A stretch of 62,915 nt of DNA, filler included. It is 3 parts of 3 records of this genome, joined end to end, with 100 filler letters (N's around TTAATTAATTAA, not from the genome) between each part and the next. Parts side by side here need not be neighbours in the genome. Positions count along the whole stretch, not along the records: positions 26,050 to 48,929 come from SRR31156797_1589; 2 more parts are not named here. One strand, 5' to 3'. The translations under genes and the position numbers were made by a program. The notes below the pieces were generated by a model, which saw only the letters and a list, made by a program, of their open reading frames with translations, made no database searches and was not told the origin of the DNA. This document shows, piece by piece, positions 31,032-55,948 of the stretch (its first letter is position 1; every line of letters begins with the position of its first letter).

Positions 31032-32291
31032 ATGGGAGTTATTTCTACTAGCGATCTATTGGACAATATGGATAGTTACAAGCTGATCGACATAAGATCC
31101 GTAGATGCTTACAATGGCTGGAAGGAGAATGGAGAACCAAAAGGTGGCCACATAAAAGGTGCAAAATCGCTGCCTTACAAGTGGTTACACTACATTGACT
31201 GGATAGAGATAGTCAGAAGCAAGGAAATCCTGCCTGAGGATTCCCTGGTAATTTATGGATATGATAAGGAGAGAACAGAAGAGGTTGCCAGGCAATTTGA
31301 AAGAGCCGGTTATCCTGAAGTAAGCGTTTTTAACTCTTTTTACGAGTGGTCGGAAAAGGATCTGCCAATGGAACATCTCGAAAGATACAGGCAGCTCGTT
31401 TCAGCAGACTGGCTGAATCAGTTGATCAGCACAGGCAATGCTCCTGAATATGACAACGATAATTTCGTGGTGTGTCATGGTCACTACAGGAATCCTTCTG
31501 ACTATGGCGAGGGACACATCCCGGGTGCAATATCTATTGATACAAATTCGCTTGAATCCACAGAGACATGGAACCGCCGTTCACCTGCAGAGATAAAAGA
31601 GACCCTGGAAAATGCAGGAATAACATCTGATACCACAGTGATACTTTATGGAAGATTCTCATTCCCAAACAACGATGATTCCTTCCCCGGAAGCAGCGCA
31701 GGCCATCTTGGTTCAATAAGGGCTGCATTCATAATGCTTTATGCCGGCGTGAAGGATGTTCGCATACTGAACGGTGGACTTCAGTCATGGCTTGACTCCG
31801 GCTATGATATAACAAAAGTGCCGGCCAGCAAAGACAGAGTATCTTTTGGCGTTGATATCCCTCAGAAACCTGAGATAGCTGTCGACCTCGAAGAGGCAAA
31901 AGATATTCTTGCTTCACCTGGCAAGAACCTTGTGTGCATCAGGAGCTGGACAGAATACATCGGCGAAGTGAGTGGTTACAACTATATCGAGAAAAAGGGC
32001 AGGATCCCTGGAGCAGTATTCGGTGACTGTGGCTCGGATGCCTATCACATGGAGAACTACAGGAATCTTGACCATACCATGCGTGAATATCATGAGGTTG
32101 CAGAAAGCTGGGAAAAGATAGGTATCACTCCAAATAAACGCAATGCTTTCTACTGTGGTACCGGTTGGAGAGGCAGTGAGGCCTTCTTCAATGCATGGCT
32201 CATGGGATGGGATAAGGCAGCAGTCTATGATGGCGGATGGTTCGAATGGAGCAACAATGATCTTCCATTTGAGACCGGGGTGCCTGAGTAA
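31032..32291 (+). CDS. eanB: Three-domain rhodanese sulfurtransferase, EanB-like (anaerobic ergothioneine synthase)
   Basis: GHIKGA and GHIPGA rhodanese motifs, SGYNY..KGRIPGA, active-site loop FYCGTGWR, YDGGWFEWS; coupled to an EgtD-type gene. Confidence 0.8.
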   Translation: MGVISTSDLLDNMDSYKLIDIRSVDAYNGWKENGEPKGGHIKGAKSLPYKWLHYIDWIEIVRSKEILPEDSLVIYGYDKERTEEVARQFERAGYPEVSVFNSFYEWSEKDLPMEHLERYRQLVSADWLNQLISTGNAPEYDNDNFVVCHGHYRNPSDYGEGHIPGAISIDTNSLESTETWNRRSPAEIKETLENAGITSDTTVILYGRFSFPNNDDSFPGSSAGHLGSIRAAFIMLYAGVKDVRILNGGLQSWLDSGYDITKVPASKDRVSFGVDIPQKPEIAVDLEEAKDILASPGKNLVCIRSWTEYIGEVSGYNYIEKKGRIPGAVFGDCGSDAYHMENYRNLDHTMREYHEVAESWEKIGITPNKRNAFYCGTGWRGSEAFFNAWLMGWDKAAVYDGGWFEWSNNDLPFETGVPE

Positions 32292-33253
32292 TGATTATTG
32301 AAGATTTCATGCCCCAAACAGGGGAAAGTTCAGTAAGGTTCAGACTGTTGGCTGGTCTGAGGTCAAGCCCTAAAACAATTCCTTCCATGTTTTTCTACGA
32401 CCATCATGGTTCGGAACTGTTTGAGCAGATAACAGGTCTGGAGGAATACTATCCTCCTAAAATCGAGATACCACTTCTTTCTTCAACTGCCAGAAAGTTG
32501 ATACATGAGCTCAAGAACTGCGATATTGTAGAGCTTGGAAGTGGGGACTGCTCGAAGATATCCATCTTTCTGGATGAAGTGCCGAAAGATATCCGTGCAA
32601 CTATGGCCTACTACCCGGTTGACGTTTGCAAAGAGGCCATTGAGAAATCTTCATGCAATCTTCATGCAAAATATCCAGAGATGGATATACATGGCATCAC
32701 TGCTGATTTCCTTGAACATATGGAGAAGATCCCGGGCAGCAGAAAAAGGTTCTTCTGTTTCTTTGGGAGCACAATAGGGAATCTCAGCGAGGCAAAGGCG
32801 ATGGAGTTCATGGATAATCTTGGAGAGGTCATGAACATCAACGACAGGTTGATCTTGGGTATGGATATGGTAAAGGATATTGATATTGTCGAGCGTGCCT
32901 ATAACGATGACAAGGGGATCACTGCGGAATTCAACAGAAACATACTGAATGTGACAAACGATCATCTCGGGACCAACTTCGATCCGAATGATTTTGAACA
33001 CGTGGCATTTTTCAACAGAGAATATTCACGGATCGAGATGCACCTGAGAGCAAAGAGGGACCTGAAAATAACGATTCCGGGTCAGAATGAAATGATCGTC
33101 ATTGGAAAAGGTGAGATGATCCATACTGAGAACTCTCATAAGTATACTGTTGGTGACATCAAAAGGCTGGCTGATTCAGGAGGACTTGATGTAGAGGAGA
33201 TCTTTACAGATGACAGGAAATGGTTCTCACTTGTTGAGATGGTGAAAAGATGA
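32291..33253 (+). CDS. egtD: L-histidine N-alpha-trimethyltransferase (EgtD/EanA)
   Basis: FYD..GSELFEQIT.LEEYY, ELGSG, GSTIGN, AYND..ITAEFN, RIEMHL, HTENSHKY. Confidence 0.92.
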   Translation: MIIEDFMPQTGESSVRFRLLAGLRSSPKTIPSMFFYDHHGSELFEQITGLEEYYPPKIEIPLLSSTARKLIHELKNCDIVELGSGDCSKISIFLDEVPKDIRATMAYYPVDVCKEAIEKSSCNLHAKYPEMDIHGITADFLEHMEKIPGSRKRFFCFFGSTIGNLSEAKAMEFMDNLGEVMNINDRLILGMDMVKDIDIVERAYNDDKGITAEFNRNILNVTNDHLGTNFDPNDFEHVAFFNREYSRIEMHLRAKRDLKITIPGQNEMIVIGKGEMIHTENSHKYTVGDIKRLADSGGLDVEEIFTDDRKWFSLVEMVKR

Positions 33254-34431
33254 TAGATGCAGCAAAAGATTTCCCCATACTTGAAAAAGAGGTATATGGA
33301 AAGAGACTTGTCTATCTTGATAACGCAGCAACGACCCAGAAGCCGGAGTGTGTGATCGACACGATCTCTGATCTCTACAGGTTGGACTACAGTAATATCC
33401 ATCGGGGAGTTCACTACCTGAGCGAGGTCTCAAGTGAGAAGTATGAGAAGGCAAGGGAGAAGGTCAGTGAGTTCATTGGTGCCAGACACTCTGCTGAAGT
33501 GACATTTACTGCCGGTACGACAGATTCCATTAATCAGGTTGCACGTTCCCTTGAACCATTTTTGAGGGGAAACGAGGTTATTGTTACGGGTGTGGAACAT
33601 CATTCTAATATCGTGCCATGGCAGATGGCAGGAGCAAAATTAAGGGCTATTCCCATAGATGATGATTGTAACTTGCTGCTGGATTCCATTGAGATAACTG
33701 GCAGGACGAAGTTGTTAGCTGTCAGCCATGCTTCCAATGTTCTTGGTTCTGTCAATAATATCAAAGAGATCACAAGTATCGCAAAGGATCATGATGTTCC
33801 GGTCCTGGTGGATGTTGCCCAGTCAGTGCAACATGTGCCTCTTGATGTAAAGGACATAGGCTGTGATTTTCTTGCCTTCTCCGGCCACAAGATGTATGCA
33901 TCCACTGGAGTGGGTGTGCTTTACACCAGCGAACGTTTCAGCGATATGATGCCAGCAAAGGGAGGAGGCGGTATGGTGGATAAGGTGACCCTTGAGAACA
34001 CTACCTATCTGGAACCTCCCCTGAGGTATGAGGCTGGAACACCGGATATCGCAGGAGCAATAAGTATCGGTGCAGCGATAGATTATATGCAGGGCATTGG
34101 TATGAAATATATAAAAAAGCATGAGCATGATGTCTATTCATATGCGAAGGAAAGGCTGCTCGAAATTGATGATATAACAGTTTACGGGAACACCGACGAG
34201 ATGTGCGGTGCCATCTCTTTCAATCTGAAAGGTGTCCATCACTATGATGCAGGCCTGATTATGGATAAGATGGGAGTCGCTGTCAGGACTGGACACCACT
34301 GTGCTCAGCCATTGATGAGGACCCTTGGGGTCGAAGGCACGGTAAGGGCAAGTTTTGCACTATATAATACTAAGGAAGATGTTGATATGCTGATCGAAGG
34401 CATAGAAAAAGTAAGGATGATGCACTCATGA
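33250..34431 (+). CDS. sufS: Class II cysteine desulfurase (SufS-like)
   Basis: YLDNAATTQKP, EHHSNIVPWQ, FSGHKMY, EAGTP, RTGHHCAQP. Confidence 0.93.
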   Translation: MIDAAKDFPILEKEVYGKRLVYLDNAATTQKPECVIDTISDLYRLDYSNIHRGVHYLSEVSSEKYEKAREKVSEFIGARHSAEVTFTAGTTDSINQVARSLEPFLRGNEVIVTGVEHHSNIVPWQMAGAKLRAIPIDDDCNLLLDSIEITGRTKLLAVSHASNVLGSVNNIKEITSIAKDHDVPVLVDVAQSVQHVPLDVKDIGCDFLAFSGHKMYASTGVGVLYTSERFSDMMPAKGGGGMVDKVTLENTTYLEPPLRYEAGTPDIAGAISIGAAIDYMQGIGMKYIKKHEHDVYSYAKERLLEIDDITVYGNTDEMCGAISFNLKGVHHYDAGLIMDKMGVAVRTGHHCAQPLMRTLGVEGTVRASFALYNTKEDVDMLIEGIEKVRMMHS

Positions 34432-34835
34432 GCGATGCCATTCAGGATGAGATTATAAAGGAGTTCGATGGTATGGAGTGGTTCGATAAGTATGAACTCC
34501 TGATATCCTCGGCAAAACAGGCTGAGACCATGGCCGAAGAGTTCAGGACAGAGGAGAACTCCATAAGTGGATGCCAGTCAAAGGTCTGGATAAGGAGTTA
34601 TATCAATGGTGATAGGCTGCACTTTGAGTATGACAGTGATGCCATGATCACAAAAGGCATCGTTGCCCTTGTACTCCGGGTGCTAAACGACCGCTATCCT
34701 CAGGAGATTCTTGACTCTGATCTGTATTTCATTGATGAGATAGGTTTGAAGTCGAATCTTTCTCCATCAAGGGCTGATGGTCTTATGTCGATTATCAGGA
34801 GGATTCGGGAGATTGCAGAAGAAAATCTCATGTAG
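34428..34835 (+). CDS. sufE: SufE-family sulfur acceptor protein
   Basis: GCQSKVW, DSDA.ITKG, LSPSRADGL. Confidence 0.9.
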   Translation: MSDAIQDEIIKEFDGMEWFDKYELLISSAKQAETMAEEFRTEENSISGCQSKVWIRSYINGDRLHFEYDSDAMITKGIVALVLRVLNDRYPQEILDSDLYFIDEIGLKSNLSPSRADGLMSIIRRIREIAEENLM

Positions 34836-35013
34836 GAAACTAGGGACTTGGCAGTATTAATTAAGAATGATGTTTATTTCTATTCTGTAGTAATTTATAT
34901 GCTCGATACGGAAATATTGTGGATATTACCAAACTACTCATTTATTCTTTTGTGTTAATATTTTGCAATAGGCACATATCATATTTATTTATGATAATGA
35001 CAAGTTAAATCTC

Positions 35014-36399
35014 ATGAAAGAAATGGAAATTGATGAAGATATTTTACTTGATTTGCTAAATATCATAAAAAAAACTGTTAACATTGAAAGAGAAAAAGGA
35101 AACATTCAGTTAGAAACGAATATAGTGCAAAAGTTTGAGGTTAGTAACTTTGGATATACTGACCGAGGATGCACTTCTCTAAGTGGTAGTTATGTTGATA
35201 TGTTGGATGAATCTTGGTCCGAATCCATAGATAAAGTTTATAATATAGTGTGCCTTACGAAAGAATATGCATTAGTATCAGATCATCTATATTCATTGTT
35301 CAATCAAAGAGAACCTTTCAATGGACTTTCTTCTTTTATTAAACGTTTAATTATTGAAAATATTTCCGATAATGGGAATTTAAATATAATTAATAATAGG
35401 TTACTTCACGATTATGTGAATGAACTAAAAGGTGGCCCCATTAAACAGACTGCAAAGGTGTATTTGCAAGGTATTATAATGGGGATTGACCAGATTCAGA
35501 TAAATTCACAATTGCTATTGAGAAGGCCAAAAAAAGAAGATTTTGAAAGCATGGTTTTAGCAGGCCACCCTCAAAGTACTTTTATTGATTTGTCTTGTAT
35601 TTCTGCTTTCCTGATAGTTCATGTTTTCGATAGAAATTTCCGTGTGCTTCAAAATGAAATAGAGAAAGCACTAATTCTTTTGCGGTTATTTAGGGTAGGA
35701 GGGGTAAGAGAAATTAGTTACAAAATAGAAACTGAATCATTTTTACCAAGAATGGATGGGGTGTTTACTTCCTCAACTAACAAAGAAAAAGCTTTTCACA
35801 ATTATAAATTGACTGAAGAGGATAATGAATTATTGTTTGATTTTTGCAAGGTTATGCATCCTCTAGTCTCTTCTCACTTTTCAAAAAATCAAAAAGAAGA
35901 TGCAATTCATATTTCTATATCATATCAACATTTCAGCGATTCACTCATTCCCCAAAGTAGCATTGAACATAGGATTGCAAGTGCAATCATGGGCCTTGAA
36001 GCATTATTTTTGAAGACAGATGAAAGAAGCGAGCTTAATTATCGTTTAGCATTTAGAATTGCTAAATTTATGTCTAAAATCCAAAAAGATCCAATTTTTG
36101 TCAAAGACTCTGTAAAAGATTCGTATTATATAAGAAGTGTATTCCTTCATGGAGATAAACTTTCAAAGACAAAAAAATACGAAGATAGGTATGGGGGTAC
36201 GAAAAATTTATTGCTAACAATACTTGGCTACCTAAGACTATCACTACTATTATTCTTATCAATTGATGCTAAAAAGCCAAACTTAATTGATTTAATTGAT
36301 AATTCATTAATAAGTGCTGATGCTGATCACCAATTAGCTAAAATCATCGAACAGTGTACTATTCTCAATATGCAGAAATTTTATCATCAATACTTTTAA
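35014..36399 (+). CDS. ApeA-like HEPN-domain protein (putative RNase / defence)
   Basis: C-terminal GLEALF...ELNYRL..RIA...YYIRSVFLHG (R-X4-H); AT-rich relative to its neighbours. Confidence 0.7.
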   Translation: MKEMEIDEDILLDLLNIIKKTVNIEREKGNIQLETNIVQKFEVSNFGYTDRGCTSLSGSYVDMLDESWSESIDKVYNIVCLTKEYALVSDHLYSLFNQREPFNGLSSFIKRLIIENISDNGNLNIINNRLLHDYVNELKGGPIKQTAKVYLQGIIMGIDQIQINSQLLLRRPKKEDFESMVLAGHPQSTFIDLSCISAFLIVHVFDRNFRVLQNEIEKALILLRLFRVGGVREISYKIETESFLPRMDGVFTSSTNKEKAFHNYKLTEEDNELLFDFCKVMHPLVSSHFSKNQKEDAIHISISYQHFSDSLIPQSSIEHRIASAIMGLEALFLKTDERSELNYRLAFRIAKFMSKIQKDPIFVKDSVKDSYYIRSVFLHGDKLSKTKKYEDRYGGTKNLLLTILGYLRLSLLLFLSIDAKKPNLIDLIDNSLISADADHQLAKIIEQCTILNMQKFYHQYF

Positions 36400-36487: not shown

Positions 36488-37453
36488 TTGGTTTCCACTT
36501 CAGGCTCTAAAACACGAAATCCCTATCTGGAAATGTTAAGGCCGGAGATAGCGGATATGGACTTTGCCCTTCCCGCAGCAAGTGCTTTGCTGGCTGCCTA
36601 TCTTGCTACAGGGTCTTTTCCTGCACTGATACCTTTCATTATAGCTGTTATCGGAGGTTATGCGGCCATCACAAGTTCCTATGTATATAATGACTACTGT
36701 GATGTCGATATCGATGAGATCAACCTCCCCAACCGTCCACTGGTATCCAACCGGCTCAGACGTTCTCAGGCTCTGAAGTACGCTCTTTTCCTTTTCATTG
36801 TTGCCAGTGTTGCTGCATTGGTCCTGAACATTGAGTCCTTTGTGGTGCTTCTCATAGCTGTGGGAACCATAAGTATTTACTCAGCAGTGGCAAAAAGGGC
36901 TACATTCCTGAGCTTTGTGCCGGTAGGTATAGCTTATGGCCTTGTTCCAATAGGTCTCTGGCTGGCATTTGATTCTGCCGGGCTCATTGAATATCCGGGG
37001 CTTTTTGGCGCTGTCCCTTCCTATGGGGATATACTTCCTGTCCCTGCGATCTTCCTTGGTCTGATGATGTGTTTTACTGACTGGGGATTCACACTTTCAG
37101 GTGTGGCAAGGGATGTTGAAGGCGACAGGGCAAGGGGTGCACCCACATTCCCTGTGACATTCGGTATTCCGGCAACTGCAAAGTTTGTGACCTTCATGTG
37201 GGTTGTAGGTGTAATTGCCTCCATTGCCATTGGCCTGACAGCAAAAATCGGCCCGATCTACTTTGCAGGAGCATTGCTTGCAGGTGGCTGGATGCTTACA
37301 CAATCATTCGATTTTATCAAGAACCCAACAGAGCAGCGTGGAGGAAGACTCTTCCTTCAGGGCTCCAGATACAGGGGCATAATGTTTGGTTCTCTCATAT
37401 TTGACGTAGTGCTTTGCATACTAGTGCCGGCATATTCCGGTATCTTATGGTAA
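36488..37453 (+). CDS. UbiA-family membrane prenyltransferase (probable TTG start after AGGTGA)
   Basis: NDYCDVDIDEINLPNRPL and RDVEGD aspartate motifs; multiple TM helices. Confidence 0.88.
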   Translation: MVSTSGSKTRNPYLEMLRPEIADMDFALPAASALLAAYLATGSFPALIPFIIAVIGGYAAITSSYVYNDYCDVDIDEINLPNRPLVSNRLRRSQALKYALFLFIVASVAALVLNIESFVVLLIAVGTISIYSAVAKRATFLSFVPVGIAYGLVPIGLWLAFDSAGLIEYPGLFGAVPSYGDILPVPAIFLGLMMCFTDWGFTLSGVARDVEGDRARGAPTFPVTFGIPATAKFVTFMWVVGVIASIAIGLTAKIGPIYFAGALLAGGWMLTQSFDFIKNPTEQRGGRLFLQGSRYRGIMFGSLIFDVVLCILVPAYSGILW

Positions 37454-37467
37454 TTTTGAGGTTCAAC

Positions 37468-38625
37468 ATGGATGCAGATATCATTGTAATAGGGGCTTCA
37501 CCTGCAGGGGTGATGGCAGCCCGGAACGCATCGAGAAAAGGATGCAAGGTCATATTGCTGGATAGAAAGGAAGCAGCAGGCGTACCGACTCACCCTGCAA
37601 ATACTTTTTTCAAAGGAATGTTTGACCGCACTGGTGAGGAAGTGGACCAGAGCTACGTTATCAAAAATCTCAAAGGTGCACACATCGTAGCGCCATCCGG
37701 CAAGAGTGTACTTTTTGAAGGCGATGCTTACTTCCTTGACCGAAAGAAGTTCGACGAATTCTACATCAAACAGGCAATCGATGCCGGAGTAGATGTTCGT
37801 TTTAGTATAGAGGTTCTTAATGTCCTCAGGACTGCTGATGGTTTTGTCGTTAGCACTTCAAAAGGTAAGGTTAAGTGTAAACTTGTAATTGTTTCAGATG
37901 GCATAAACTCAAGGATAAGCGGACTTCTGGGTCTGAAACCCATCAAGTATCCGGATGATATTGCCTGGTCACTGGAAGCGGAGATTGAGGCTGAAGGCAT
38001 TGGAGAACCCGATTACTTTGAATATTACGTGGGTAACCATGCCCCTGGCTGGAAATCCACATATTCTCCATGCGGTGGAAACAGGGCGACGCTTGGTATG
38101 TATGTTCGCAGACATGGTATGGATGTATCTGATTTCTTTGACACCTGGCTTGAAAGGTTCAAGAAAATAAAGGGACTGGATGATGTAAAGATCATCAGTA
38201 AATCCACGGGAGGAGATCCTATTGCTGCCATTCCTGGCAAGATTGTGGATGACGGTGTCATGGTAGTAGGTGGCTCTGCTGCACAGTCCGGTATAGGGTA
38301 CGGGATGCACGCAGGACAGATGTGTGGCAATGTAGCAGCCGATGCCATCAAGAAAGGCGACACTTCAAAGAGATTCCTGTCCGAATACAGAAAGCTCTGG
38401 AATGATGCTTACAGGACAGAGTACTATCTTGGAAGGTTTGCCCTTGAGACACTAAGGAAAATGAGTGACTGGGAAGTCAATGGGATGATGAAGGTCTTTG
38501 AAGGTGAGGATCTCACGGTACTTGGAGGTAGTCCCTTTAACCAGACACTACAGATATCAAAGATGATACTGAAGAACAATCCCTCTTCCATACTTTCATA
38601 CAGGGCTATCTTCAGGATGAAGTGA
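37468..38625 (+). CDS. Atypical geranylgeranyl-reductase-like FAD oxidoreductase
   Basis: DIIVIGASPAG..AA, LDRKKFD, VSDG.NS; the canonical GGR Cys and PxxYxWxFP motifs are altered. Confidence 0.78.
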   Translation: MDADIIVIGASPAGVMAARNASRKGCKVILLDRKEAAGVPTHPANTFFKGMFDRTGEEVDQSYVIKNLKGAHIVAPSGKSVLFEGDAYFLDRKKFDEFYIKQAIDAGVDVRFSIEVLNVLRTADGFVVSTSKGKVKCKLVIVSDGINSRISGLLGLKPIKYPDDIAWSLEAEIEAEGIGEPDYFEYYVGNHAPGWKSTYSPCGGNRATLGMYVRRHGMDVSDFFDTWLERFKKIKGLDDVKIISKSTGGDPIAAIPGKIVDDGVMVVGGSAAQSGIGYGMHAGQMCGNVAADAIKKGDTSKRFLSEYRKLWNDAYRTEYYLGRFALETLRKMSDWEVNGMMKVFEGEDLTVLGGSPFNQTLQISKMILKNNPSSILSYRAIFRMK

Positions 38626-38628
38626 GCA

Positions 38629-39774
38629 ATGAATAAAAAGTATTATTTTTACAAAAATCCCTTTTTCAAGGTATATGCCCAGATCGAAAATGACCGGGTA
38701 AAGATGAAGACCTCAGGTATTGCATCTTCAGTCATGGGTTCATTCGTATCCGACATGATGGAAATATTCGAGGATACAAAACCATCAAAGATCGGGGAAA
38801 ATCAGTTGATTTATTCGACCTGGATGCCTCCCATCCCCAGTAAGGCATTTGACAGGCTTGTCTCAAGCCAGATGAGCGCCATGAGGGGCAAATTCGTTCC
38901 AGAACAGATCACTATCTCTATCACAGAAGAATGTCCTAACAGATGTCTTCACTGCGCTCTCCCGGATACTAAAAACAAAGCAAAGCTCGATCCTGATACT
39001 GTGAAAAGTGTCATCGACCAGACTCAGGATATTGGGACATCCCTTATCATTTTTGATGGTGGTGAACCCCTGTTGTATGATGGTCTTGAGGACCTTATTA
39101 GTTATGTTGATCAGTCAAAGGCAATTCCCGGACTTTTCACATCCGGTGTAGGTATGACTCCTGAGCGTGCCAGAAGCCTTAAAGCTGCAGGCCTTTCCAT
39201 GCTCAGTATTAGTCTGGACAGTGCCTGTGAGGAAGGTCACGACTATATGCGCGGCAGGCAGGGTGTATTTAATGAGGCTGTAAATGCCATCAAATACGGG
39301 ATTGAAGCAGGTCTTTTAGTTGGAATTTACGTTGTCCTGTCACCCGGAAATGTGGATGAACTGGATGATTTCTATAAACTGTCAAAGGAGCTTGGGGTCC
39401 ATGAGCTTTCCTTCTATGAAATAGTACCTACCGGAAGGTGGGAAGGTCATGAGAAGGAAGTTGTTTCTCCGGATGATTTGAAAAAATTCGATGATTTTGT
39501 AGAACGTGCTTCTTGTGATGATGGTCCTCGTGTATTCCCTATTCCTCAGATTATACGGAAAATGGGTTGTTTTGCAGGCAGAAAGTGGCTTCATGTAACT
39601 CCAGAAGGTGATGTGCTTCCTTGTGCATGCATGCCTAAACCCTATGGCAATATCCATGATGAATCTCTGGCCTCAATCTGGAGACAGATATACAAAGATC
39701 CTGTTTTCAACTCAGGTCCATGTCTTATGCGAGATTCTGAGTTCAGAAAGATCCATCTTGGATTTGAACGATAA
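38629..39774 (+). CDS. Radical SAM protein with a SPASM/twitch-like C-terminus
   Basis: CPNRCLHC, GGEPLL, SLD....HD..RG, CFAG......PEGDVLPCAC. Confidence 0.9.
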   Translation: MNKKYYFYKNPFFKVYAQIENDRVKMKTSGIASSVMGSFVSDMMEIFEDTKPSKIGENQLIYSTWMPPIPSKAFDRLVSSQMSAMRGKFVPEQITISITEECPNRCLHCALPDTKNKAKLDPDTVKSVIDQTQDIGTSLIIFDGGEPLLYDGLEDLISYVDQSKAIPGLFTSGVGMTPERARSLKAAGLSMLSISLDSACEEGHDYMRGRQGVFNEAVNAIKYGIEAGLLVGIYVVLSPGNVDELDDFYKLSKELGVHELSFYEIVPTGRWEGHEKEVVSPDDLKKFDDFVERASCDDGPRVFPIPQIIRKMGCFAGRKWLHVTPEGDVLPCACMPKPYGNIHDESLASIWRQIYKDPVFNSGPCLMRDSEFRKIHLGFER

Positions 39775-39854: not shown

Positions 39855-40715
39855 TTATTTCAGGAACCCTGATCTCTGGATCGCCATTAGGTTCTCCATA
39901 GTGAGCTTTTCTCCGGACTTGAACTTGTCCATGATGTCTTCCGCATCCTTGCGGGCATCTGCTCTTGCAGCTTCCTTCTTTCCATCGGCATCTCCCTTTT
40001 TCATCTTGCGGAGTTCTTTGTCGATATCGCGGATTTCTTTCTGCGCTGCAATGAAAAGCTTGTGCTGTTCATCAGCTTTTTCCTGGAATTGAACGAATTC
40101 TTTGTGAGCAGCATCGGATTCTGCACGTACCTTGTCAGCCTCTTTGAAGGTGGTGATCATCTTGTCATGATATTCCTGTGCCTTCTGTGCATAATCTGAA
40201 AGTACAGTGTGGTACTGTGAAGCTTCATCCCTGATCTCCTGAGCTTCTGCAAGCAGGTTCTTGAGTTCGTCATTGCCTTCAAGCTGCTGCTTCTTTACAA
40301 CATACTGCTTCTGGAGTTCAGTAATTTTGTTGACCAGCTCTCTTTCCTTGTTGGTTGTGAGTACTTCGGTCTGCTGTGTGAATTCCAGCCTGTCAATCTC
40401 TTTGCGTATGTCTTTGATCGAAGGACCACCAAGGTTATTTTCATTGCGTATTTGGTCGATCTTAGCAAATACTTCGTTTGCCTTGTTATTGACCTCATCA
40501 CGGAGTGCTTTGTTTTCCTTCACCTTCTCGTTGTTCTCGTCACGGAGTACTTTGTATTCCTGTGCCTCGTTGATAAGGTCCTTGGTATTCTTATTTAGCT
40601 CATTACGCTTTGATGCAAGTGTGCTGGCTTCTGCATTAAGCTCGTTACGTTTCTTCTTATACTCTTCAGACTGGTTCTTAAGTTCAGTCTTCTTGTCGTT
40701 CAGTTCTTTCATCAT
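39855..40715 (-). CDS. Archaeal coiled-coil protein (COG1340-like, commonly found next to serB)
   Basis: Heptad-rich sequence, LEFTQQTEVL...ERELV, FKSGEKLT. Confidence 0.8.
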   Translation of the reverse strand: MMKELNDKKTELKNQSEEYKKKRNELNAEASTLASKRNELNKNTKDLINEAQEYKVLRDENNEKVKENKALRDEVNNKANEVFAKIDQIRNENNLGGPSIKDIRKEIDRLEFTQQTEVLTTNKERELVNKITELQKQYVVKKQQLEGNDELKNLLAEAQEIRDEASQYHTVLSDYAQKAQEYHDKMITTFKEADKVRAESDAAHKEFVQFQEKADEQHKLFIAAQKEIRDIDKELRKMKKGDADGKKEAARADARKDAEDIMDKFKSGEKLTMENLMAIQRSGFLK

Positions 40716-40755
40716 TTCCTTATTATCCTCCCGGTCCAGCAAAAAAGCTGGCATT

Positions 40756-41571
40756 TCATGCATTTCTAATGCACGATACTTGGCCTTCTTCCGATTCCAA
40801 CAACTGGATAACCGGAATAACTGCTTCAAGGTTTTTCTCCGTTATGACAATGTCTGCATGTTCGTGAAGAATCGGCTTGGAATTGAATGCAATTGCATAC
40901 TTTGCCCTTTTGAATATGCATATATCATTGGCACCATCGCCAACTACTATACATTCGTCAGGCTTAATTCCATACTCTTCTGAGATGTCCTCAAGAACAT
41001 ATTCCTTGGATCCTTGTCCCATAAGAGGGCCGCTTACTTCTCCTGTCAGTTGTTCATTGTCAATCTGAAGTTTGTTTGCAACCACGTAGTCGATTCCAAG
41101 AGTTTTACCAACACGCTCGGCGGCCATGGTAAATCCTCCTGATATCATTGCGGTCTTATAACCGCGGGATCTCAGGTAATCGATCAGTACTCTTGCACCT
41201 GGCATTAGGGGCATTCTGTCAAGGGCATCATGTGCCTTGTCAAGCGGAAGTCCCTTTAGTAGCTTTACTCTTTCAAGAAGTGCTTCAGAAAAATCTAATT
41301 CTCCGTGCATAGCCTTCTCCGTAATGGCAGCCACTTCGTCTCCCACTCCTGCGGCAATTGCCAGTTCATCAATGGTTTCAGCATCTATTAGAGTGCTGTC
41401 CATATCAAAAACCACTAATCTTATTCTGTCAGAATTATTGCTGATACAACTCACTTCATCAAACCTGGAATTTGAATCCCGCATTGAAACAGTATTTATA
41501 TGCCGAGATTGATCTGAGATACGTTGCATTGCTTTTAAGGTTTTCGGATCGTAACCATCACATTCTTTCAT
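40756..41571 (-). CDS. serB: Phosphoserine phosphatase (HAD family); true start probably nearer 41454
   Basis: FDMDSTL..AETIDE, ITEKAM.GELDF, ISGGF, VGDGAND. Confidence 0.92.
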   Translation of the reverse strand: MKECDGYDPKTLKAMQRISDQSRHINTVSMRDSNSRFDEVSCISNNSDRIRLVVFDMDSTLIDAETIDELAIAAGVGDEVAAITEKAMHGELDFSEALLERVKLLKGLPLDKAHDALDRMPLMPGARVLIDYLRSRGYKTAMISGGFTMAAERVGKTLGIDYVVANKLQIDNEQLTGEVSGPLMGQGSKEYVLEDISEEYGIKPDECIVVGDGANDICIFKRAKYAIAFNSKPILHEHADIVITEKNLEAVIPVIQLLESEEGQVSCIRNA

Positions 41572-41652
41572 TTTTTACGGTTGCTTTATTCATGCGGTTC
41601 CATTCCAAAAGTAATATATGCTACACTGCACATTGCACTACTGTGATTTTAC

Positions 41653-42474
41653 ATGGCAAAAATTGGATTCATAAAGCTAGGTAACTTAGGCATGAGCCAG
41701 GTGGTCGACCTCGTACAGGATGAGATCGCAGCAAGAGAAGGAATTACTATCCGTTCATTCGGAACAGGTCCTAAAATGGGTAAAGACGAAGCAGCAGCAA
41801 CAGAAGAACTCAAGAACTTCGATGCTGACTTCTATGTAATGATCAGCCCAAACTCAAGTGCACCAGGTCCAACCGCAGCTCGTGAGATATACAAGGACGT
41901 TCCATGTATCGTTATCTCAGACGGTCCAACCAAGAAGGACGACCGTGCAGCACTCGAAGAAGCAGGATTCGGTTACATCATCATGACCGTTGACCCACTC
42001 ATCGGAGCAAAGACAGAATTCCTCGACCCTGTAGAGATGGCATCATTCAACTCAGACGCAATGAAGGTCCTTTCAACCTGCGGTGTTGTAAGACTTATCC
42101 AGGAAGAGCTTGACAAGGTTGCTGCAATGGCAGACGAAGGTAAGGAACTTGAGCTTCCACACATCCTCGCAAAGCCAGAGAAGTGTGTCGCAAGGGCAGG
42201 CTTCAACAACCCATACTCAAAGGCAAAGGCTCTTGCATCCCTTCACATGGCTGACATGGTGGCAAAGATCAACTTCCCAGCGTGCTTCATGATGAAGGAC
42301 CTCGAGCAGGTAGCACTCACAACAGCAGCTGGTCACGAAATGATGCGCGCAGCAGCACAGCTGGCAGTTGAAGCAAGAGAGATCGAGAAAGCAAACGACA
42401 GTGTCTTCAGGCAGCCACACGCAAAGAAAGGCCATCTGATGACCAAGACAGCTCTCTACGACAAGCCACAGTAA
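41653..42474 (+). CDS. mtd: F420-dependent methylenetetrahydromethanopterin dehydrogenase
   Basis: KLGNLG, DE.AARE, SPN..PGP..ARE, DPLIGAK.EFLDP.EMA.FN.D, AAGHEMMR.AA. Confidence 0.95.
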   Translation: MAKIGFIKLGNLGMSQVVDLVQDEIAAREGITIRSFGTGPKMGKDEAAATEELKNFDADFYVMISPNSSAPGPTAAREIYKDVPCIVISDGPTKKDDRAALEEAGFGYIIMTVDPLIGAKTEFLDPVEMASFNSDAMKVLSTCGVVRLIQEELDKVAAMADEGKELELPHILAKPEKCVARAGFNNPYSKAKALASLHMADMVAKINFPACFMMKDLEQVALTTAAGHEMMRAAAQLAVEAREIEKANDSVFRQPHAKKGHLMTKTALYDKPQ

Positions 42475-49295: not shown

Positions 49296-50738
49296 TCAAA
49301 GCACGCCATACGTTGTCAAAACAGTGCCTGTCCGGGTCTGCAGCTGCACCCATGCCTGACGCAGGGCCACCAGGGCCAAGGCCAGAGATCCCCGGGCTGC
49401 GGTTAAATCTTTCTGGGCCTCGTTAAGGCGCACCAGGGAACCTTGTCCTGCATTGTACTCCTTTTCCACCAGATCGCGTGTCCGCTGCACCAGATCAACG
49501 TTTTGCCGTTGGAGGGCCACCTGGGTCTGGGCCGTGGCCACCAGGCCTGCCGAAGCTCTGATATCGGCAGATACGGAAAGAATCATCTCCTCCAATTGTT
49601 TTTCAAGTTCCTTTTTCCGGTGGTCTGCCTCGCGTACCTTGGCTTTGGTGGCCCCCCCTGAAAAAAGATTGTAGGAAAGGCCCACCTGGATACTTTTTCC
49701 GAAATCGTTGCCGCCAAAGTGCATGTCATCGGTTCGTTCGCCCTCCACACTGCCGCTCACCACCACCGAAGGGTAGTAGTCTGCCTGGGCGATCCTGATC
49801 CGGGCTGTGGTCTGCTTGATCTGCCAGCGCGTCTTCCGGATGTCGGGCCGTAAGTCAAAGGCCCGGGCAATTAATTGCTCCACACAAGGGGTGGAAAGCT
49901 CCGTTTCCGTTTCAGGAGCCAGCCTTGCCAGATTGAGATGGCCGGGAAACAAGGCCTGGGGAAGCCCTAAAAGGGCTGCCAGGCCGGACAAGGCTGTATC
50001 ATATTCATACTCCTGGTTGATACGGGCGGTTTTAGCCTGGTTTTCCCTGACCTGGAAGTTAAGTACATCACTCAAGGAACCGGTTCCCATGCGGTAACGG
50101 GCCCGGGCCTCCTGTAATTGACGCTGATTAAAAGCCTCGTCCGCCTTTTCAATGGCGATGTTCTCCAGGGCCAGCTGGGCGGAAAAAAAAGATTGGGCCA
50201 CAGCAGAAACCAGCAGGCGCTGGGCATCCTTCACGCCCTGGCTCTCCACACTTTTCCCGTAAAGGGCCTCAAGATTTGAAAATTTACGTTCAAATCCGTC
50301 AAAAAGGGTCCAGGTGGCTGTCAGGCTTGATTTATAATACGTTTCAGGATCATCAATGACGGCATTTGGGTTAAAAAAACGGGCTGTGGTTAAATTTTCG
50401 TCATATGTGTTGCCGGACAGCTTTGCCCATCTTCCGGAGACGCCGGCGTCCAGGCGCGGCCAATAGGTGGACCGGGCCTGGTCCATCCTTGCCTTGGCCT
50501 GATGGACCCGCTCTCTTGCCGCCCGGATTCCCGGATTGCTGCAAAGGGCCTTGGCCACGGCAGTCTGCATGTCCAGGGTATTGATTTCAGCCAGATTAAC
50601 GGCCTTGCCCTTTTCTGTGGATGGCCGGGGCGGCTCAGCATGTGTTTCTGCATTGACGTTGCCTGCCGCAGAACAGCTGCCATTCACCGAACCAAAACAA
50701 ATGATGACCAACGAGATGAACAGGATAATTTTTTTCAT
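49296..50738 (-). CDS. TolC-family outer membrane efflux protein
   Basis: Signal peptide, AL..NP.I.AA, WTLFDG, YNLFSGG repeats. Confidence 0.9.
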   Translation of the reverse strand: MKKIILFISLVIICFGSVNGSCSAAGNVNAETHAEPPRPSTEKGKAVNLAEINTLDMQTAVAKALCSNPGIRAARERVHQAKARMDQARSTYWPRLDAGVSGRWAKLSGNTYDENLTTARFFNPNAVIDDPETYYKSSLTATWTLFDGFERKFSNLEALYGKSVESQGVKDAQRLLVSAVAQSFFSAQLALENIAIEKADEAFNQRQLQEARARYRMGTGSLSDVLNFQVRENQAKTARINQEYEYDTALSGLAALLGLPQALFPGHLNLARLAPETETELSTPCVEQLIARAFDLRPDIRKTRWQIKQTTARIRIAQADYYPSVVVSGSVEGERTDDMHFGGNDFGKSIQVGLSYNLFSGGATKAKVREADHRKKELEKQLEEMILSVSADIRASAGLVATAQTQVALQRQNVDLVQRTRDLVEKEYNAGQGSLVRLNEAQKDLTAARGSLALALVALRQAWVQLQTRTGTVLTTYGVL

Positions 50739-50739
50739 T

Positions 50740-53700: not shown

Positions 53701-53982
53701 AATATTGGCGGTCCCAACCCCCTCGGATGACTGGGTCGTGTATTGCTTAATGCCTTCAACACCCTCAATGGCCTCTTCGATCTTGCGGCTGATCCCCTCC
53801 TCCACCTCTTCCGGATCGGCTCCGGGATAAGGCACCAAGATGGTGATCATATCCAGGGAAAACTCCGGAAAGGTTTCACGGATCATGTTGGCTGTGGCTA
53901 TGAATCCTGCGACAAAAATCAGCACAAGCACAATATTGGCAAATACCGTATTGCGGGCAAAGGCTGCAAGGGTCTGTTTCAT
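50740..53982 (-). CDS. RND efflux transporter permease (AcrB/D/F family)
   Basis: YPGADPEEVE, GIVVDDAIVVGE, GVVVNDAIVL, RFRAIFLT. Confidence 0.93.
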   Translation of the reverse strand: MKQTLAAFARNTVFANIVLVLIFVAGFIATANMIRETFPEFSLDMITILVPYPGADPEEVEEGISRKIEEAIEGVEGIKQYTTQSSEGVGTANIEVLENYAVDDVLDKVRTKVDAISTFPVDAEKPVISELLLKDVVSLLYLSGDMSERRIKEWSERIKDEIQQLPGISQVATFGAREYEIGIEVSEEKLREYGLSLGDVSRAVSQSSLNLAGGTIRTSEEEIRVRTMGRKYTGEQFASIVVLARPQGDVITLGRLAEINDGFTEDPIAATINGETAVLVIVYKTPEEDALKILGTVKKYIAGKQLQVPEGMNIKMLYDNTQMLRARIDLLLKNGIIGLCIVFFLLWCFLNTRLSFWAGMGIPISIAGALVILWGLGGTINMISLFGLIMVLGIVVDDAIVVGEAIYVHRKQGKPALQAAIDGVSEVGMPVLAAVLTTIVAFTPLFYIGGIMGKFIAIMPVVVIACLVVSLVECLFLLPAHLSHLPDPNSPSTKKNRLIMRLSKVQGTISRRMEQFVDRIYLPFLSKALHWRYISLAIAMAVMLLTIGLLKGGILKFEVFPKMDGFIMTATTQFPNGTPPDVTRQAIARIEDALMRLEKKYVTRSGAPLVKDRLTLVGQTLGDVPSTGPNYGSVQAILVDSESRGIHSEDLMVAWEKEIGILPGIESLTISGMETGPPGDPIEVWLQGHDMAVILAAADDLMARLRKFDGVYQVRSDFSPGKNEMRLSLKPEARTLGLTVEDLARQVYAGYYGHEALRLQRGRDDVRVKVRYTADERSRLSDLEQVRIRTAGGFEVPLLSVADVSFAPGFSTITRTDGMRRVAVSAGVDTKKANANEIFAELSANYFPEMKHRYPGLYVALQGEKKKMRESFGTLQIGFPLAVLGIFIIIATMFRSYAQPFVILFTVPFGIIGAVIGHLVLGYDLSMMSMFGMVALTGVVVNDAIVLIERINENLAEKMPFFEAILQGGMRRFRAIFLTTLSTVGGLTPLIMETDFQAKFLIPMALSIAAGVAFATILTLVLIPSLLAILNDLRLAVHRLRYGTWPKRVDVEPATGRRQQPCNQESNKSSARAIHSGELR

Positions 53983-55328: not shown

Positions 55329-55336
55329 TTGCCACC

Positions 55337-55828
55337 TCACTCAAACAAATTTTTGGAAGGCCAAAGACCTGCTTCTATAAGTTTTTCGATTTGTTGCAAA
55401 ACCGAGCACCATTGGCTGGTAATTTCCGGGCCAAGCAACTGGGTTAACTCTACGAATGATTTCAATACTTTTTGCTCTACCAAAGCGATTTCGTCAACCG
55501 CTGCAGGCGCCACACGGATCTCAACTTTGCGCCGGTCTGTTTCAGAATGGGTACGGATCAACAGTCCCCGCTCTACCAAACGGTCGACCATGGCGGAGAC
55601 CGATGGCGGAGAAACGTTTAATATCCCGGCCAGCTCGGTGACGGAGACAAATTCACGGACACGGATCATCATAATCATATTCTTCTGTTGATAACTCAAC
55701 TCTCCGAATTGAGACGCCTTACCCTTTTCCATGGCCACAGCAGTTATAATACGGGTGATATTATCGTGAACTTTTCTGCCGGTATTAAAGATGTAGCGTG
55801 CATTGCCCAGTGTTTCGTTATTCTCCAT
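55337..55828 (-). CDS. MarR-family transcriptional regulator
   Basis: ELA..L.VS.PSVS.MVDRLVERGL..R.....DRR. Confidence 0.9.
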   Translation of the reverse strand: MENNETLGNARYIFNTGRKVHDNITRIITAVAMEKGKASQFGELSYQQKNMIMMIRVREFVSVTELAGILNVSPPSVSAMVDRLVERGLLIRTHSETDRRKVEIRVAPAAVDEIALVEQKVLKSFVELTQLLGPEITSQWCSVLQQIEKLIEAGLWPSKNLFE

Positions 55829-55900
55829 CAAGCCTCCTTAATTCGTGTTCATGTCCGGACACTGTGTAATTTACTCATATCATCATCTGATTGTTTGTCA

Positions 55901-55948
55901 AATTAATATTTAGTTAGACTAAATATTAATTATCCTAATTTTTAGGAT
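55901..55948. promoter_or_regulatory. Tandem inverted repeats in a divergent promoter region (candidate MarR operators)
   Basis: Perfect 14-3-14 repeat aattaatatttagt/actaaatattaatt (55901-55931), then a 7-3-7 repeat atcctaa/ttaggat (55932-55948). Confidence 0.55.

What the first reader, a model, noticed from the sequence alone, without database searches (positions are those of the whole stretch)
36488..39774. UbiA prenyltransferase + atypical GGR-like reductase + radical SAM operon in a Methanosarcinaceae-like archaeon: candidate prenyl-cofactor (methanophenazine?) pathway
Seen: three co-oriented genes with 14-bp and 3-bp gaps, encoding an intact UbiA-type enzyme (NDxxDxxxD, DxxGD), a GGR-like flavoprotein and a SPASM-type radical SAM. 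Established: Methanosarcinales use methanophenazine, a 2-hydroxyphenazine ether-linked to a C25 isoprenoid whose proximal unit is saturated. To my knowledge the prenylation and reduction genes are unassigned. Inference: O-prenylation by a UbiA enzyme plus reduction of one double bond by a specialised reductase is the chemistry required, and the radical SAM could tailor the head group or chain. A specialised membrane-lipid modification pathway is the main alternative.
Basis: partly seen in the sequence, partly recalled or inferred. Interest (0 to 1): 0.75.

Follow-up and report, generated by a model that had tools for sequence, protein, structure and literature searches.

The report
Candidate methanophenazine prenylation operon
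Three tightly packed genes of a Methanolobus-like methanogen (a membrane prenyltransferase, an unusual prenyl-reductase-like flavoprotein and a radical SAM enzyme) are the best available, still untested, candidates for missing steps in making methanophenazine, the membrane electron carrier of these methane producers.

Summary
Three co-oriented genes sit at 36488-39774 with 14-bp and 3-bp gaps: UbiA-family, GGR-fold flavoprotein, radical SAM/SPASM.

The methanophenazine (MP) reading is supported by comparative genomics but remains unproven.
- The trio or its parts occur in 93-97 of 151 sampled Methanosarcinales genomes. None of the 51 genomes with futalosine (menaquinone) genes has them.
- The radical SAM has two full-length paralogues per genome. 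One lies beside geranylfarnesyl-PP synthase, the only enzyme tied to MP, in Methanolobus, Methanosarcina, Methanotrichaceae and 'Methanocellales' MAGs.
- The UbiA forms its own clade, apart from a true DGGGP synthase in a related genome.

Points against:
- The flavoprotein lacks three sequence signatures seen in solved GGRs.
- 22 trio-bearing genomes have no GFPP synthase.
- A related clustered gene set occurs in about 1-Mb archaea without McrA or HdrD.
- No biochemistry exists.

The scan found this before on other DNA (e1-2457909, e1-2783714). I reached the same reading independently and added the menaquinone complementarity with paralogue controls. Confidence in an MP or MP-like carrier role is about 0.55.

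The parts
36488..37453 (+). UbiA-superfamily membrane prenyltransferase (321 aa from the TTG at 36488; alternative GTG start at 36455). Proposed to transfer the polyprenyl chain to the carrier's head group.
   Evidence: PF01040 scores 141.2 bits and both Asp-rich motifs are read. It is below every NCBIfam equivalog cut-off; the best is PRK12884 at 109.5 against 269. The nearest solved relatives are DGGGP synthase 6m31 (53.8 bits) and chlorophyll synthase. Its own orthologue clade is separate from the DGGGPS of G001. Found in 93 of 151 order genomes and 0 of 51 Mqn+ genomes.
37468..38625 (+). Atypical GGR-fold flavoprotein (385 aa). Proposed prenyl reductase acting on the prenylated product; this role is inferred.
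   Evidence: TIGR02032 scores 120.5 against 158.8. The AF2 model has pLDDT 92. The best fold match is T. acidophilum DGGGPL reductase 3oz2 at TMq 0.88. The GxGxxG motif is present. The Cys of the RCGE/PCGD segment, the YxWxFP motif and the GD motif of solved GGRs are replaced by family-invariant P43-A44, K196-x-T198-x-S-P201 and GG. Found in 93 of 151 order genomes, all within the rSAM+ set.
38629..39774 (+). Radical SAM enzyme with a SPASM/twitch-like C-terminal part and a roughly 90-aa N-terminal extension (381 aa). This is subfamily 'A' of a three-paralogue family; its substrate is unknown.
   Evidence: Radical_SAM scores 79.7 and SPASM 35.6 bits. AhbD and NirJ2 models score about 124 against 500. 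Near-invariant residues are C102/C106/C109 plus only C314, C332 and C365. The AF2 model has pLDDT 95.3. Fold matches are SkfB, SuiB, CteB, BlsE, PqqE and MoaA. Paralogue B lies beside GFPP synthase. Found in 97 of 151 order genomes.

Best explanation
The three genes are an operon. Together with two paralogous radical SAM genes and (in most lineages) geranylfarnesyl-PP synthase encoded elsewhere in the genome, they build methanophenazine or a closely related prenylated membrane redox carrier.

Proposed steps, all inferred:
1. The UbiA enzyme transfers the polyprenyl chain (C25 from GFPP where GFPP synthase is present) to the hydroxyl of 2-hydroxyphenazine or a precursor. This forms an ether, as its nearest solved relative DGGGP synthase does on glycerol.
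2. The GGR-fold flavoprotein then saturates the isoprene unit next to the ether oxygen. This must follow transfer, because prenyl transfer needs an allylic diphosphate.
3. The radical SAM enzymes (A here, B beside GFPP synthase, C elsewhere) make or tailor the head group under anoxic conditions.

What is shown: gene order, conservation, family and fold assignments, linkage of paralogue B to GFPP synthase, and the phyletic pattern.

What is not shown: any substrate, product or activity.
For: 1. Conserved operon. 58 of the 67 related loci hold all three genes in the same order and 2 more hold UbiA and the GGR-like gene before the locus ends. Of the other 7, 6 lack the two neighbours within the DNA held and 1 ends inside the UbiA gene. 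The order is also kept in 6 of 6 further regions, one of them confirmed as Methanosarcina lacustris.

2. Link to the only MP-associated enzyme. The radical SAM has two full-length paralogues (about 41% and 39% identity) in each genome. Paralogue B lies directly beside GFPP synthase. NF040627 scores 337 bits, below its 600 cut-off but far above the next model at 156. This holds in Methanolobus G001, M. lacustris and 20 further genomes by coordinates. It also holds in Methanotrichaceae G154, in G249 and twice in MAG G153. PMC3017947 (passages read) calls MM_0789 GFPP synthase MP-specific and restricted to Methanosarcinales. bioRxiv 10.1101/2022.01.26.477811 (passages read) places M. acetivorans ccmE MA4149 in a putative operon with GFPP synthase.

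3. Complementarity with menaquinone genes in 151 Methanosarcinales genomes. The rSAM family is in 97, UbiA in 93 and the GGR-like gene in 93. PF02621 (MqnA/D) is in 51. The overlap is 0 and only 3 genomes have neither. G142, labelled Methanoperedenaceae, has the trio and no Mqn.

4. Controls. Three other UbiA paralogues of G001 do not show this pattern. The L089 type is in 65 of 151 genomes, 22 of them Mqn+. The L087 type is in 16 of 151, 11 of them Mqn+. The L090 type is in 1 of 151.

5. The UbiA is not the lipid enzyme. Its nearest solved relatives, DGGGP synthase and chlorophyll synthase, both make C-O bonds (recalled).

6. The set also occurs in other methanogen lineages that are cytochrome-bearing by recall: Methanotrichaceae and Methanonatronarchaeum (one family member). 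It is also in MAGs G152 and G153, which carry an hdrED-like operon.

7. In G223-type genomes, UbiA-family, GGR-like and three SPASM radical SAM genes lie in one cluster. This argues that they work together.
Against: 1. There are no experimental data, and no RNA run was listed.

2. The phyletic complementarity may rest on few evolutionary events. The tool gave no taxonomy, so the 51 Mqn+ genomes may be one clade, and the Fisher test ignores relatedness.

3. In the phylum sample, 1 genome (G281) has both a family member and an Mqn hit.

4. 22 of 93 UbiA+ genomes have no GFPP synthase. Only a GGPP-synthase-type hit (E about 1e-32 to 1e-35) appears in 16 of them and nothing in 6. A C25 chain is therefore not universal.

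5. A related gene set is clustered in about 1-Mb genomes. None of the 5 searched has McrA, an Mqn gene or a close UbiA orthologue. Of the 20 small genomes searched, 9 have no HdrD match (E <= 1e-20), among them 4 of those 5 and a sixth that was fetched; 3 have an HdrD orthologue. The product is therefore not tied to methanogenesis.

6. The flavoprotein lacks the Cys, YxWxFP and GD signatures of solved GGRs, so reductase activity is uncertain.

7. The SPASM-type radical SAM has a beta-beta-beta-alpha N-terminal domain, and its fold matches include the peptide maturases SuiB, CteB and SkfB. This leaves a peptide substrate possible.

8. The window itself holds only the trio, without GFPP synthase or paralogues B and C.
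Confidence: 0.55

Rival explanations
1. A specialised isoprenoid membrane-lipid or hydrocarbon tailoring pathway. The UbiA makes an unusual ether lipid, the GGR-like enzyme sets its saturation, and the radical SAM enzymes form C-C bonds or otherwise modify chains, as GDGT-MAS/Tes does.
For: The nearest profiles and solved relatives are lipid enzymes: DGGGP synthase 6m31 and DGGGPL reductase 3oz2. GDGT-MAS 7tom appears among the fold matches at rank 48. The related cluster occurs in non-methanogenic small genomes without HdrD. 22 UbiA+ genomes lack GFPP synthase.
Against: A lipid role does not explain the zero overlap with futalosine genes. It also does not explain the conserved pairing of paralogue B with GFPP synthase, which PMC3017947 (passages read) assigns to MP rather than to lipids. 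The genome already has a true DGGGPS and other GGR paralogues. The aromatic YxWxFP lipid-tunnel motif is replaced by polar residues.
Confidence: 0.2
2. A peptide-derived (RiPP-like) prenylated product or cofactor. The SPASM radical SAM enzymes cross-link or modify a small precursor peptide through their N-terminal domain, and the UbiA and flavoprotein then add and adjust a prenyl anchor. This could also be the route to the MP head group, in which case it merges with the best explanation.
For: The best fold and sequence matches are the peptide-modifying enzymes SkfB, SuiB, CteB and PqqE. The N-terminal three-strand-plus-helix domain aligns over more than 400 columns with SuiB and CteB. By recall, both of those carry N-terminal peptide-recognition domains.
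Against: No precursor-peptide gene was looked for or seen. Pfam finds no PqqD/RRE domain at E <= 0.01. Only three conserved Cys follow the core, which is closer to small-molecule twitch enzymes such as MoaA and BlsE, also among the matches.
Confidence: 0.08
3. Modification of heme or another tetrapyrrole: a heme O-like prenylation with side-chain chemistry by AhbD-like radical SAM enzymes.
For: The best named radical SAM models are AhbD and NirJ2. The heme O synthase model gives 78 bits. One source names an ANME-2c orthologue 'protoheme IX farnesyltransferase'. Paralogue B and GFPP synthase sit in an operon with ccmE, next to ahbD, ahbAB and hemA.
Against: All scores are far below cut-offs: 124 against 500 and 78 against 210. 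G001 has its own true AhbD (604 > 500). To my recollection no prenylated heme is known in these organisms. PMC3017947 (passages read) interprets the neighbourhood as co-regulation of electron-transport components.
Confidence: 0.05

Closest known systems
Digeranylgeranylglyceryl phosphate synthase (UbiA superfamily; solved structure 6m31)
   Same: Same superfamily and Asp-rich motifs. It is the best solved sequence relative (53.8 bits) and lies among the best NCBIfam profiles. It forms an ether bond with a polyprenyl diphosphate, which is the chemistry MP needs.
   Different: Scores are about a quarter to a third of the equivalog cut-offs. A separate true DGGGPS exists in a related genome. The clade is separate on a long stem. 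The phyletic pattern is restricted and excludes Mqn+ genomes. The acceptor is unknown.
Quinone prenylation plus side-chain saturation (MenA/UbiA/MqnP with MenJ-type or archaeal quinone prenyl reductases)
   Same: The logic is the same: a UbiA-type transferase anchors a redox head group and a GGR-family flavoprotein partly saturates the chain. The set is complementary in distribution to the futalosine menaquinone pathway.
   Different: No membership. MqnP, UbiA and MenJ models score 34-51 bits against cut-offs of 275-700. The MP link would be an O-ether, not a C-C bond. The head-group pathway is unknown.
Archaeal geranylgeranyl reductases (T. acidophilum 3oz2; S. acidocaldarius 3atq/4opc)
   Same: Same fold (TMq 0.88 and 0.77-0.84), the same N-terminal GxGxxG motif, and 108 bits to 3oz2.
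   Different: Below the TIGR02032 cut-off (120.5 against 158.8). The Cys of the RCGE/PCGD segment, YxWxFP and GD are replaced by residues invariant within this family.
SPASM/twitch radical SAM enzymes (PqqE, SkfB, SuiB, BlsE, AhbD/NirJ, MoaA)
   Same: CX3CX2C core, a SPASM Pfam hit and a confident fold match.
   Different: No equivalog reached. Only three conserved C-terminal Cys. A family-specific N-terminal domain with a conserved PP motif. Only about 20 clusters among 1.84 billion representatives align over the full length. There are three conserved subfamilies.
Futalosine (Mqn) menaquinone pathway
   Same: An anaerobic route to a membrane carrier that uses several radical SAM enzymes plus a UbiA-type transferase. 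It is mutually exclusive with this set in the order sample.
   Different: The radical SAM families are not homologous. No MqnA/D was found in 0 of 97 set-bearing order genomes.

Membership tests
UbiA prenyltransferase superfamily (PF01040) | Profile match above the gathering score | tested here: met
   141.2 bits against 34.2, covering positions 4-244 of 250.
UbiA prenyltransferase superfamily (PF01040) | Two Asp-rich motifs (NDxxDxxxD and DxxxD) | tested here: met
   NDYCDVDID and DVEGD read in the translation. The motif definitions are recalled.
DGGGP synthase | Reaches an NCBIfam equivalog cut-off and groups with the genome's lipid enzyme | tested here: not met
   82.9 against 296 and 83.6 against 353. 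G001 paralogue L086 scores 369 > 296. The clade is separate, with 96/95 support.
Heme O synthase, 4-HB polyprenyltransferase, MqnP | Reaches the equivalog cut-off | tested here: not met
   78.2 against 210.3, 48.9 against 275.45 and 50.7 against 430.
Geranylgeranyl reductase family | GGR fold with an N-terminal FAD-binding GxGxxG | tested here: met
   TMq 0.88 to 3oz2. The segment VIGASPAG is read.
Geranylgeranyl reductase family | TIGR02032 subfamily cut-off | tested here: not met
   120.5 against 158.8. The Pfam GGR_cat domain is not hit at E <= 0.01.
Geranylgeranyl reductase family | Conserved Cys near the flavin, the YxWxFP motif and the GD motif. Their roles are recalled; their presence in solved GGRs is seen. 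| tested here: not met
   RCGE/PCGD aligns to H-P-A-N, YxWxFP aligns to KxTxSP and GDAA aligns to GGSA. The substitutes are invariant in 20 of 20 family members.
Radical SAM superfamily | CX3CX2C motif and profile match | tested here: met
   C102, C106 and C109 are near-invariant. PF04055 scores 79.7 against 29.5.
SPASM subgroup | Seven-Cys motif for two auxiliary clusters (recalled definition) | tested here: inconclusive
   PF13186 scores 35.6 against 21.5, but only C314, C332 and C365 are near-invariant. This fits one auxiliary cluster (twitch-like).
AhbD/NirJ heme radical SAM enzymes | Equivalog cut-off | tested here: not met
   123.9 and 123.5 against 500. G001 has a true AhbD at 604.
Methanophenazine biosynthesis (no defined family yet) | Present in MP producers and linked to GFPP synthase | tested here: met
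   Orthologues are named from M. mazei, M. acetivorans and others. Paralogue B is adjacent to GFPP synthase.
Methanophenazine biosynthesis (no defined family yet) | Enzyme activity on 2-hydroxyphenazine or MP intermediates | not testable with these tools
   Needs genetics, LC-MS and enzyme assays.
Bacterial Phz phenazine pathway | phzA-G homologues in the genome | not tested
   No search was run. Their absence from Methanosarcina is only recalled.

The most novel reading that the evidence does not exclude
UbiA, the atypical GGR-fold flavoprotein and the three-subfamily SPASM radical SAM family, with GFPP synthase where present, may constitute a complete Phz-independent anaerobic pathway to methanophenazine. 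That would be a third major archaeal route to a membrane electron carrier, beside the Men and Mqn menaquinone pathways. In this reading the radical SAM enzymes assemble the phenazine ring by new chemistry. The clustered version in about 1-Mb non-methanogenic archaea would mean that MP-like carriers exist outside methanogens.
Probability: 0.3. Interest if true: 0.9.

Novelty: new variant of a known kind. Interest (0 to 1): 0.72.

Why it matters
Methanophenazine is the membrane electron carrier that lets Methanosarcinales and their methanotrophic relatives conserve energy with cytochromes. It underlies acetoclastic and methylotrophic methane formation.

Apart from GFPP synthase, no biosynthetic gene for it turned up in the literature I could search (searches; PMC6315138 from 2018 states that the pathway is unidentified).

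This locus gives a short, concrete list of candidate genes with orthologues in the genetically tractable M. acetivorans. A long-standing open question therefore becomes directly testable.

If confirmed, the genes would serve as genomic markers that separate MP-using lineages from menaquinone-using ones. They would also be a handle for tuning electron transport in methanogens. The radical SAM enzymes might reveal new chemistry for building a heterocyclic redox head group without oxygen.

Tried and rejected
- Whole-genome look-up for the window: none is held. I worked through related genomes reached from loci, for which the tool shows no taxonomy.
- RNA evidence: no RNA holder was listed, so co-transcription is untested.
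- Ogawa et al. 2014 (FEBS J), on a novel M. acetivorans GGR, is not held. From citing papers (PMC10821996, PMC6309074; passages read) I could not tell which gene it concerns. The three M. acetivorans GGRs tested in PMC6309074 (Q8TQQ6, Q8TLY0, Q8TSV3) do not have accessions next to the trio's radical SAM (Q8THT9), which is only a weak hint that they are different genes.
Paper supplements, which may list the up- or down-regulated 'UbiA' loci of PMC6315138 and bioRxiv 2022.07.20.500911, are closed.
- Protein atlas look-up of the radical SAM gave only generic radical SAM/SPASM clusters.
- The upstream ORF 35014-36399 was considered as a fourth operon gene and rejected. It has no family and no homologue in any of the 67 related loci.
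- The DGGGP synthase reading was rejected.
- I did not test the N-terminal domain of the radical SAM on its own, did not search for precursor peptides, and did not search for Phz homologues.
- I did not run a complex prediction.
- The first tblastn script got no answer and was rerun.


Full report
OBSERVATION

The window holds three co-oriented ORFs:
- 36488-37453: 321 aa from a TTG. A GTG at 36455 is an alternative start.
- 37468-38625: 385 aa, starting at an ATG.
- 38629-39774: 381 aa, starting at an ATG.

The gaps are 14 bp and 3 bp, read directly.

Pfam assigns the first ORF to UbiA (141.2 bits). The third matches Radical_SAM plus SPASM. The second hits only generic FAD families. In NCBIfam all three stay below every curated cut-off:
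- UbiA: best PRK12884, 109.5 against 269.
- Flavoprotein: TIGR02032, 120.5 against 158.8.
- Radical SAM: AhbD and NirJ2, about 124 against 500.

The Asp-rich motifs and the CX3CX2C motif are in the translation.

The host is a Methanolobus-like Methanosarcinaceae. The best homologues are at 80-87% identity. TgtA lies upstream, and DUF7121, SerB and F420-dependent Mtd lie downstream.

CONSERVATION OF THE TRIO

A scan of species-representative genomes returned 67 loci. By tblastn, 58 hold all three genes in the same order and 2 more hold UbiA and the GGR-like gene before the locus ends. Genera covered are Methanolobus, Methanomethylovorans, Methanococcoides, Methanohalophilus, Methanohalobium, 'Ca. 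Methanovorans' (ANME-3) and a Methanoperedenaceae-labelled MAG.

Of the other 7 loci, 6 (two Methanotrichaceae, two 'Methanocellales' MAGs and two others) lack the two neighbours within the DNA held. One ends inside the UbiA gene.

Six further genome regions, five from genomes of 3.3-4.2 Mb, keep the trio and the downstream synteny. One of these is Methanosarcina lacustris. The clusters hold orthologues named from M. acetivorans, M. mazei, M. horonobensis, M. siciliae, M. soligelidi and M. hadiensis. The trio is therefore present in methanophenazine producers.

THE RADICAL SAM FAMILY AND ITS LINK TO GFPP SYNTHASE

Each set-bearing genome has about three full-length matches to the radical SAM, N-terminal extension included.

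In Methanolobus sp. ZRKC2 (handle G001), paralogue B overlaps the end of a gene whose best model by far is geranylfarnesyl-PP synthase. NF040627 scores 337 bits, below the 600 cut-off, while the next model scores 156. The operon is ccmE-like, GFPP synthase, radical SAM B, and it lies next to ahbD, ahbA, ahbB, a precorrin-2 dehydrogenase-like gene and hemA.

The same order is kept in M. lacustris. By coordinates, GFPP synthase and paralogue B are adjacent in 22 genomes. They are not adjacent in 17 fragmentary genomes of another lineage. The pair is also adjacent in Methanotrichaceae G154, in G249 and twice in MAG G153.

Two papers fit this (passages read). PMC3017947 describes MM_0789 GFPP synthase as specific for methanophenazine, restricted to Methanosarcinales and located near heme and ATP synthase genes. 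bioRxiv 10.1101/2022.01.26.477811 places ccmE MA4149 in a putative operon with GFPP synthase. In the passages I read, neither mentions the radical SAM.

A family tree shows:
- subfamily C, with 100/95 support;
- subfamilies A and B as sisters (93/95);
- an independent duplication in a lineage with small genomes.

Across 1.84 billion representatives, only about 20 clusters align over the full length. The family is narrow.

PHYLETIC PATTERN

I searched a fixed sample of 151 genomes of the order of G001. The results (set arithmetic checked):

| Gene | Threshold | Genomes of 151 |
|---|---|---|
| UbiA orthologue | E <= 1e-20 | 93 |
| Radical SAM family | E <= 1e-40 | 97 |
| GGR-like | E <= 1e-60 | 93 |
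| GFPP synthase | E <= 1e-50 | 72 |
| PF02621 (MqnA/MqnD, futalosine menaquinone pathway) | E <= 1e-10 | 51 |

- All 93 UbiA+ genomes are radical SAM+.
- No Mqn+ genome has UbiA, the GGR-like gene or the radical SAM family.
- Only three genomes have neither set.
- G142, the genome of the Methanoperedenaceae-labelled locus, has the trio and no Mqn.

Three other UbiA paralogues of G001 served as controls and do not behave this way:
- The PRK13591 type is in 65 of 151 genomes, 22 of them Mqn+.
- A second type is in 16 of 151, 11 of them Mqn+.
- A third type is in 1 of 151.

In a 301-genome sample of the phylum, the radical SAM family is in 73 genomes and PF02621 in 80. One genome, G281, has both.

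Caveats:
- The tool gave no taxonomy for these genomes, so the Mqn+ genomes may form one clade. The pattern may then reflect few events.
- MAG incompleteness also affects the absences.

WHAT THE PROTEINS ARE

UbiA:
- G001 has six UbiA paralogues. One is a true DGGGP synthase (369 > 296).
- The trio's UbiA forms its own clade (15 rows, 96/95 support, long stem), apart from all the paralogues.
- Its nearest solved relatives are DGGGP synthase 6m31 and chlorophyll synthase. Both form C-O bonds (recalled).

Flavoprotein:
- It folds confidently (pLDDT 92).
- It is closest to T. acidophilum DGGGPL reductase 3oz2 (TMq 0.88) and S. acidocaldarius GGR.
- In residue alignments, three signatures of the solved GGRs are replaced. 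The Cys of RCGE/PCGD, the YxWxFP motif and the GD motif correspond to H-P-A-N, KxTxSP and GG.
- The substitutes are invariant in 20 of 20 family members, including the small-genome lineage.
- It is therefore a distinct GGR-fold subfamily, and its reductase activity is inferred, not shown.

Radical SAM:
- It folds with pLDDT 95.3.
- An N-terminal three-strand-plus-helix domain and a conserved PP loop precede the core.
- Only three conserved Cys follow the core, which suggests one auxiliary cluster.
- Fold matches are SkfB, SuiB, CteB, BlsE, PqqE, MoaA and viperin, with GDGT-MAS at rank 48.
- This does not settle whether the substrate is a small molecule or a peptide.

RESULTS THAT CUT AGAINST A SIMPLE MP STORY

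1. 22 UbiA+ genomes have no GFPP synthase. Only a GGPP-synthase-type hit, at the level of G001's own paralogue, appears in 16 of them and nothing in 6. The UbiA and GGR-like genes remain adjacent there.

2. About 20 small genomes (0.7-2.1 Mb) carry three family members at 34-38% identity.
   - In G223, G162 and G208 these lie in one cluster with a PTO1314-like radical SAM, a GGR-like gene (40% identity) and a 308-aa protein that NCBI names 'UbiA family'. My Pfam and NCBIfam scans did not hit that protein.
   - The 5 of these genomes that I searched have no McrA, no Mqn and no close UbiA orthologue.
   - 9 of the 20 have no HdrD match at E <= 1e-20, while 3 have an HdrD orthologue.

3. No expression data could be found.

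MOST LIKELY MECHANISM

The following is inferred.
- The UbiA attaches the polyprenyl chain to the head-group hydroxyl. The chain is C25 where GFPP synthase exists, and perhaps C20 elsewhere.
- The flavoprotein saturates the isoprene unit next to the oxygen after transfer.
- The three radical SAM subfamilies make or tailor the head group anaerobically.

Polar residues replace the aromatic tunnel motif of lipid GGRs. This fits a substrate whose reactive double bond lies beside a polar heteroaromatic group, but that is speculation.

I put 0.55 on an MP or MP-like carrier role for the trio, and less on each specific step.

Rival readings:
- lipid or hydrocarbon tailoring: 0.2;
- a peptide-derived product: 0.08, and this may merge with the main reading;
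- heme modification: 0.05.

COMPARISON AND NOVELTY

The locus works like quinone prenylation plus side-chain saturation (MenA/UbiA with MenJ-type reductases). It is complementary in distribution to the futalosine pathway. It is not a member of any curated equivalog family tested.

Literature:
- I found no gene assignment for MP prenylation or reduction in the library.
- PMC6315138 and bioRxiv 2022.07.20.500911 (passages read) only speculate that an unspecified 'UbiA' is involved.
- Ogawa 2014 could not be read, and supplements are closed.

Earlier notes of this scan already described the same trio in another Methanolobus genome (e1-2457909) and the seven-gene cluster (e1-2783714). I read them after my own analysis, and they agree with it.
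- the menaquinone complementarity with paralogue controls;
- the GFPP-synthase-less lineage;
- the subfamily tree;
- the residue-level departure from solved GGRs.

VERDICT

This is a real, conserved operon. It is a well-supported but unproven candidate for missing methanophenazine steps. I rate it a new variant of a known kind, with interest 0.72.

Noticed in passing
window 31032-34835: A rhodanese-like gene (weak hits only), an EgtD-type histidine methyltransferase (TIGR03438, 343.9 > 290.9), SufS and SufE form a co-oriented block between TgtA and the trio. It looks like an anaerobic (EanA/EanB-type, recalled) ergothioneine cluster. EgtD hits are present in only 5 of the 67 related loci, plus L073.
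   Followed up: partly
window 35014-36399: A 461-aa ORF directly upstream of the trio has no Pfam or NCBIfam family and no homologue in any of the 67 related loci. The surrounding 34001-36000 has low GC (0.369). It may be a recent insertion.
   Followed up: partly
window 39855-42474: DUF7121 (-), phosphoserine phosphatase SerB (-) and F420-dependent Mtd (+) follow the trio. This synteny is kept from Methanolobus to Methanosarcina.
   Followed up: partly
L083:3045-13254 (G223); also L084, L085: Genomes of about 1 Mb, labelled 'Methanosarcinales archaeon' by NCBI, lack McrA, HdrD and Mqn. They carry a compact cluster of three SPASM radical SAM genes, a PTO1314-like radical SAM, a GGR-like gene, a very divergent 'UbiA family' gene and an SsuA/NMT1-like binding-fold protein. 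KaiC-like genes lie upstream.
   Followed up: partly
G043 contig C116 and G071 contig C58 (order sample): A different UbiA paralogue (the L087 type of G001) lies on the same contig as MqnA/D in Mqn+ genomes. It occurs in 11 Mqn+ genomes out of 16 hits. It is a candidate menaquinone prenyltransferase of those lineages.
   Followed up: no
L091 and L092 (G153): One 'Methanocellales'-labelled MAG has two copies of the GFPP synthase and radical SAM B pair, plus an hdrED-like operon (L079).
   Followed up: no
G281 (phylum sample): This is the only genome with both a radical SAM A-like gene (57% identity) and a PF02621 hit. It also has a 41%-identity GFPP-synthase-like gene and no HdrD orthologue. 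It could be a mixed MAG or a real exception.
   Followed up: no
L075:7631-9698 (G001); L083:3045-4952; L081:6169-6741: KaiC-like ATPase genes lie next to radical SAM paralogue C in Methanolobus. They also lie next to the cluster in G223 and, with a weak hit, next to the GGR-like gene in G153.
   Followed up: no
window 8001-12000 and 50001-60000: These stretches have clearly higher GC (0.50-0.54) than the rest of the window (0.37-0.48). I did not examine them.
   Followed up: no
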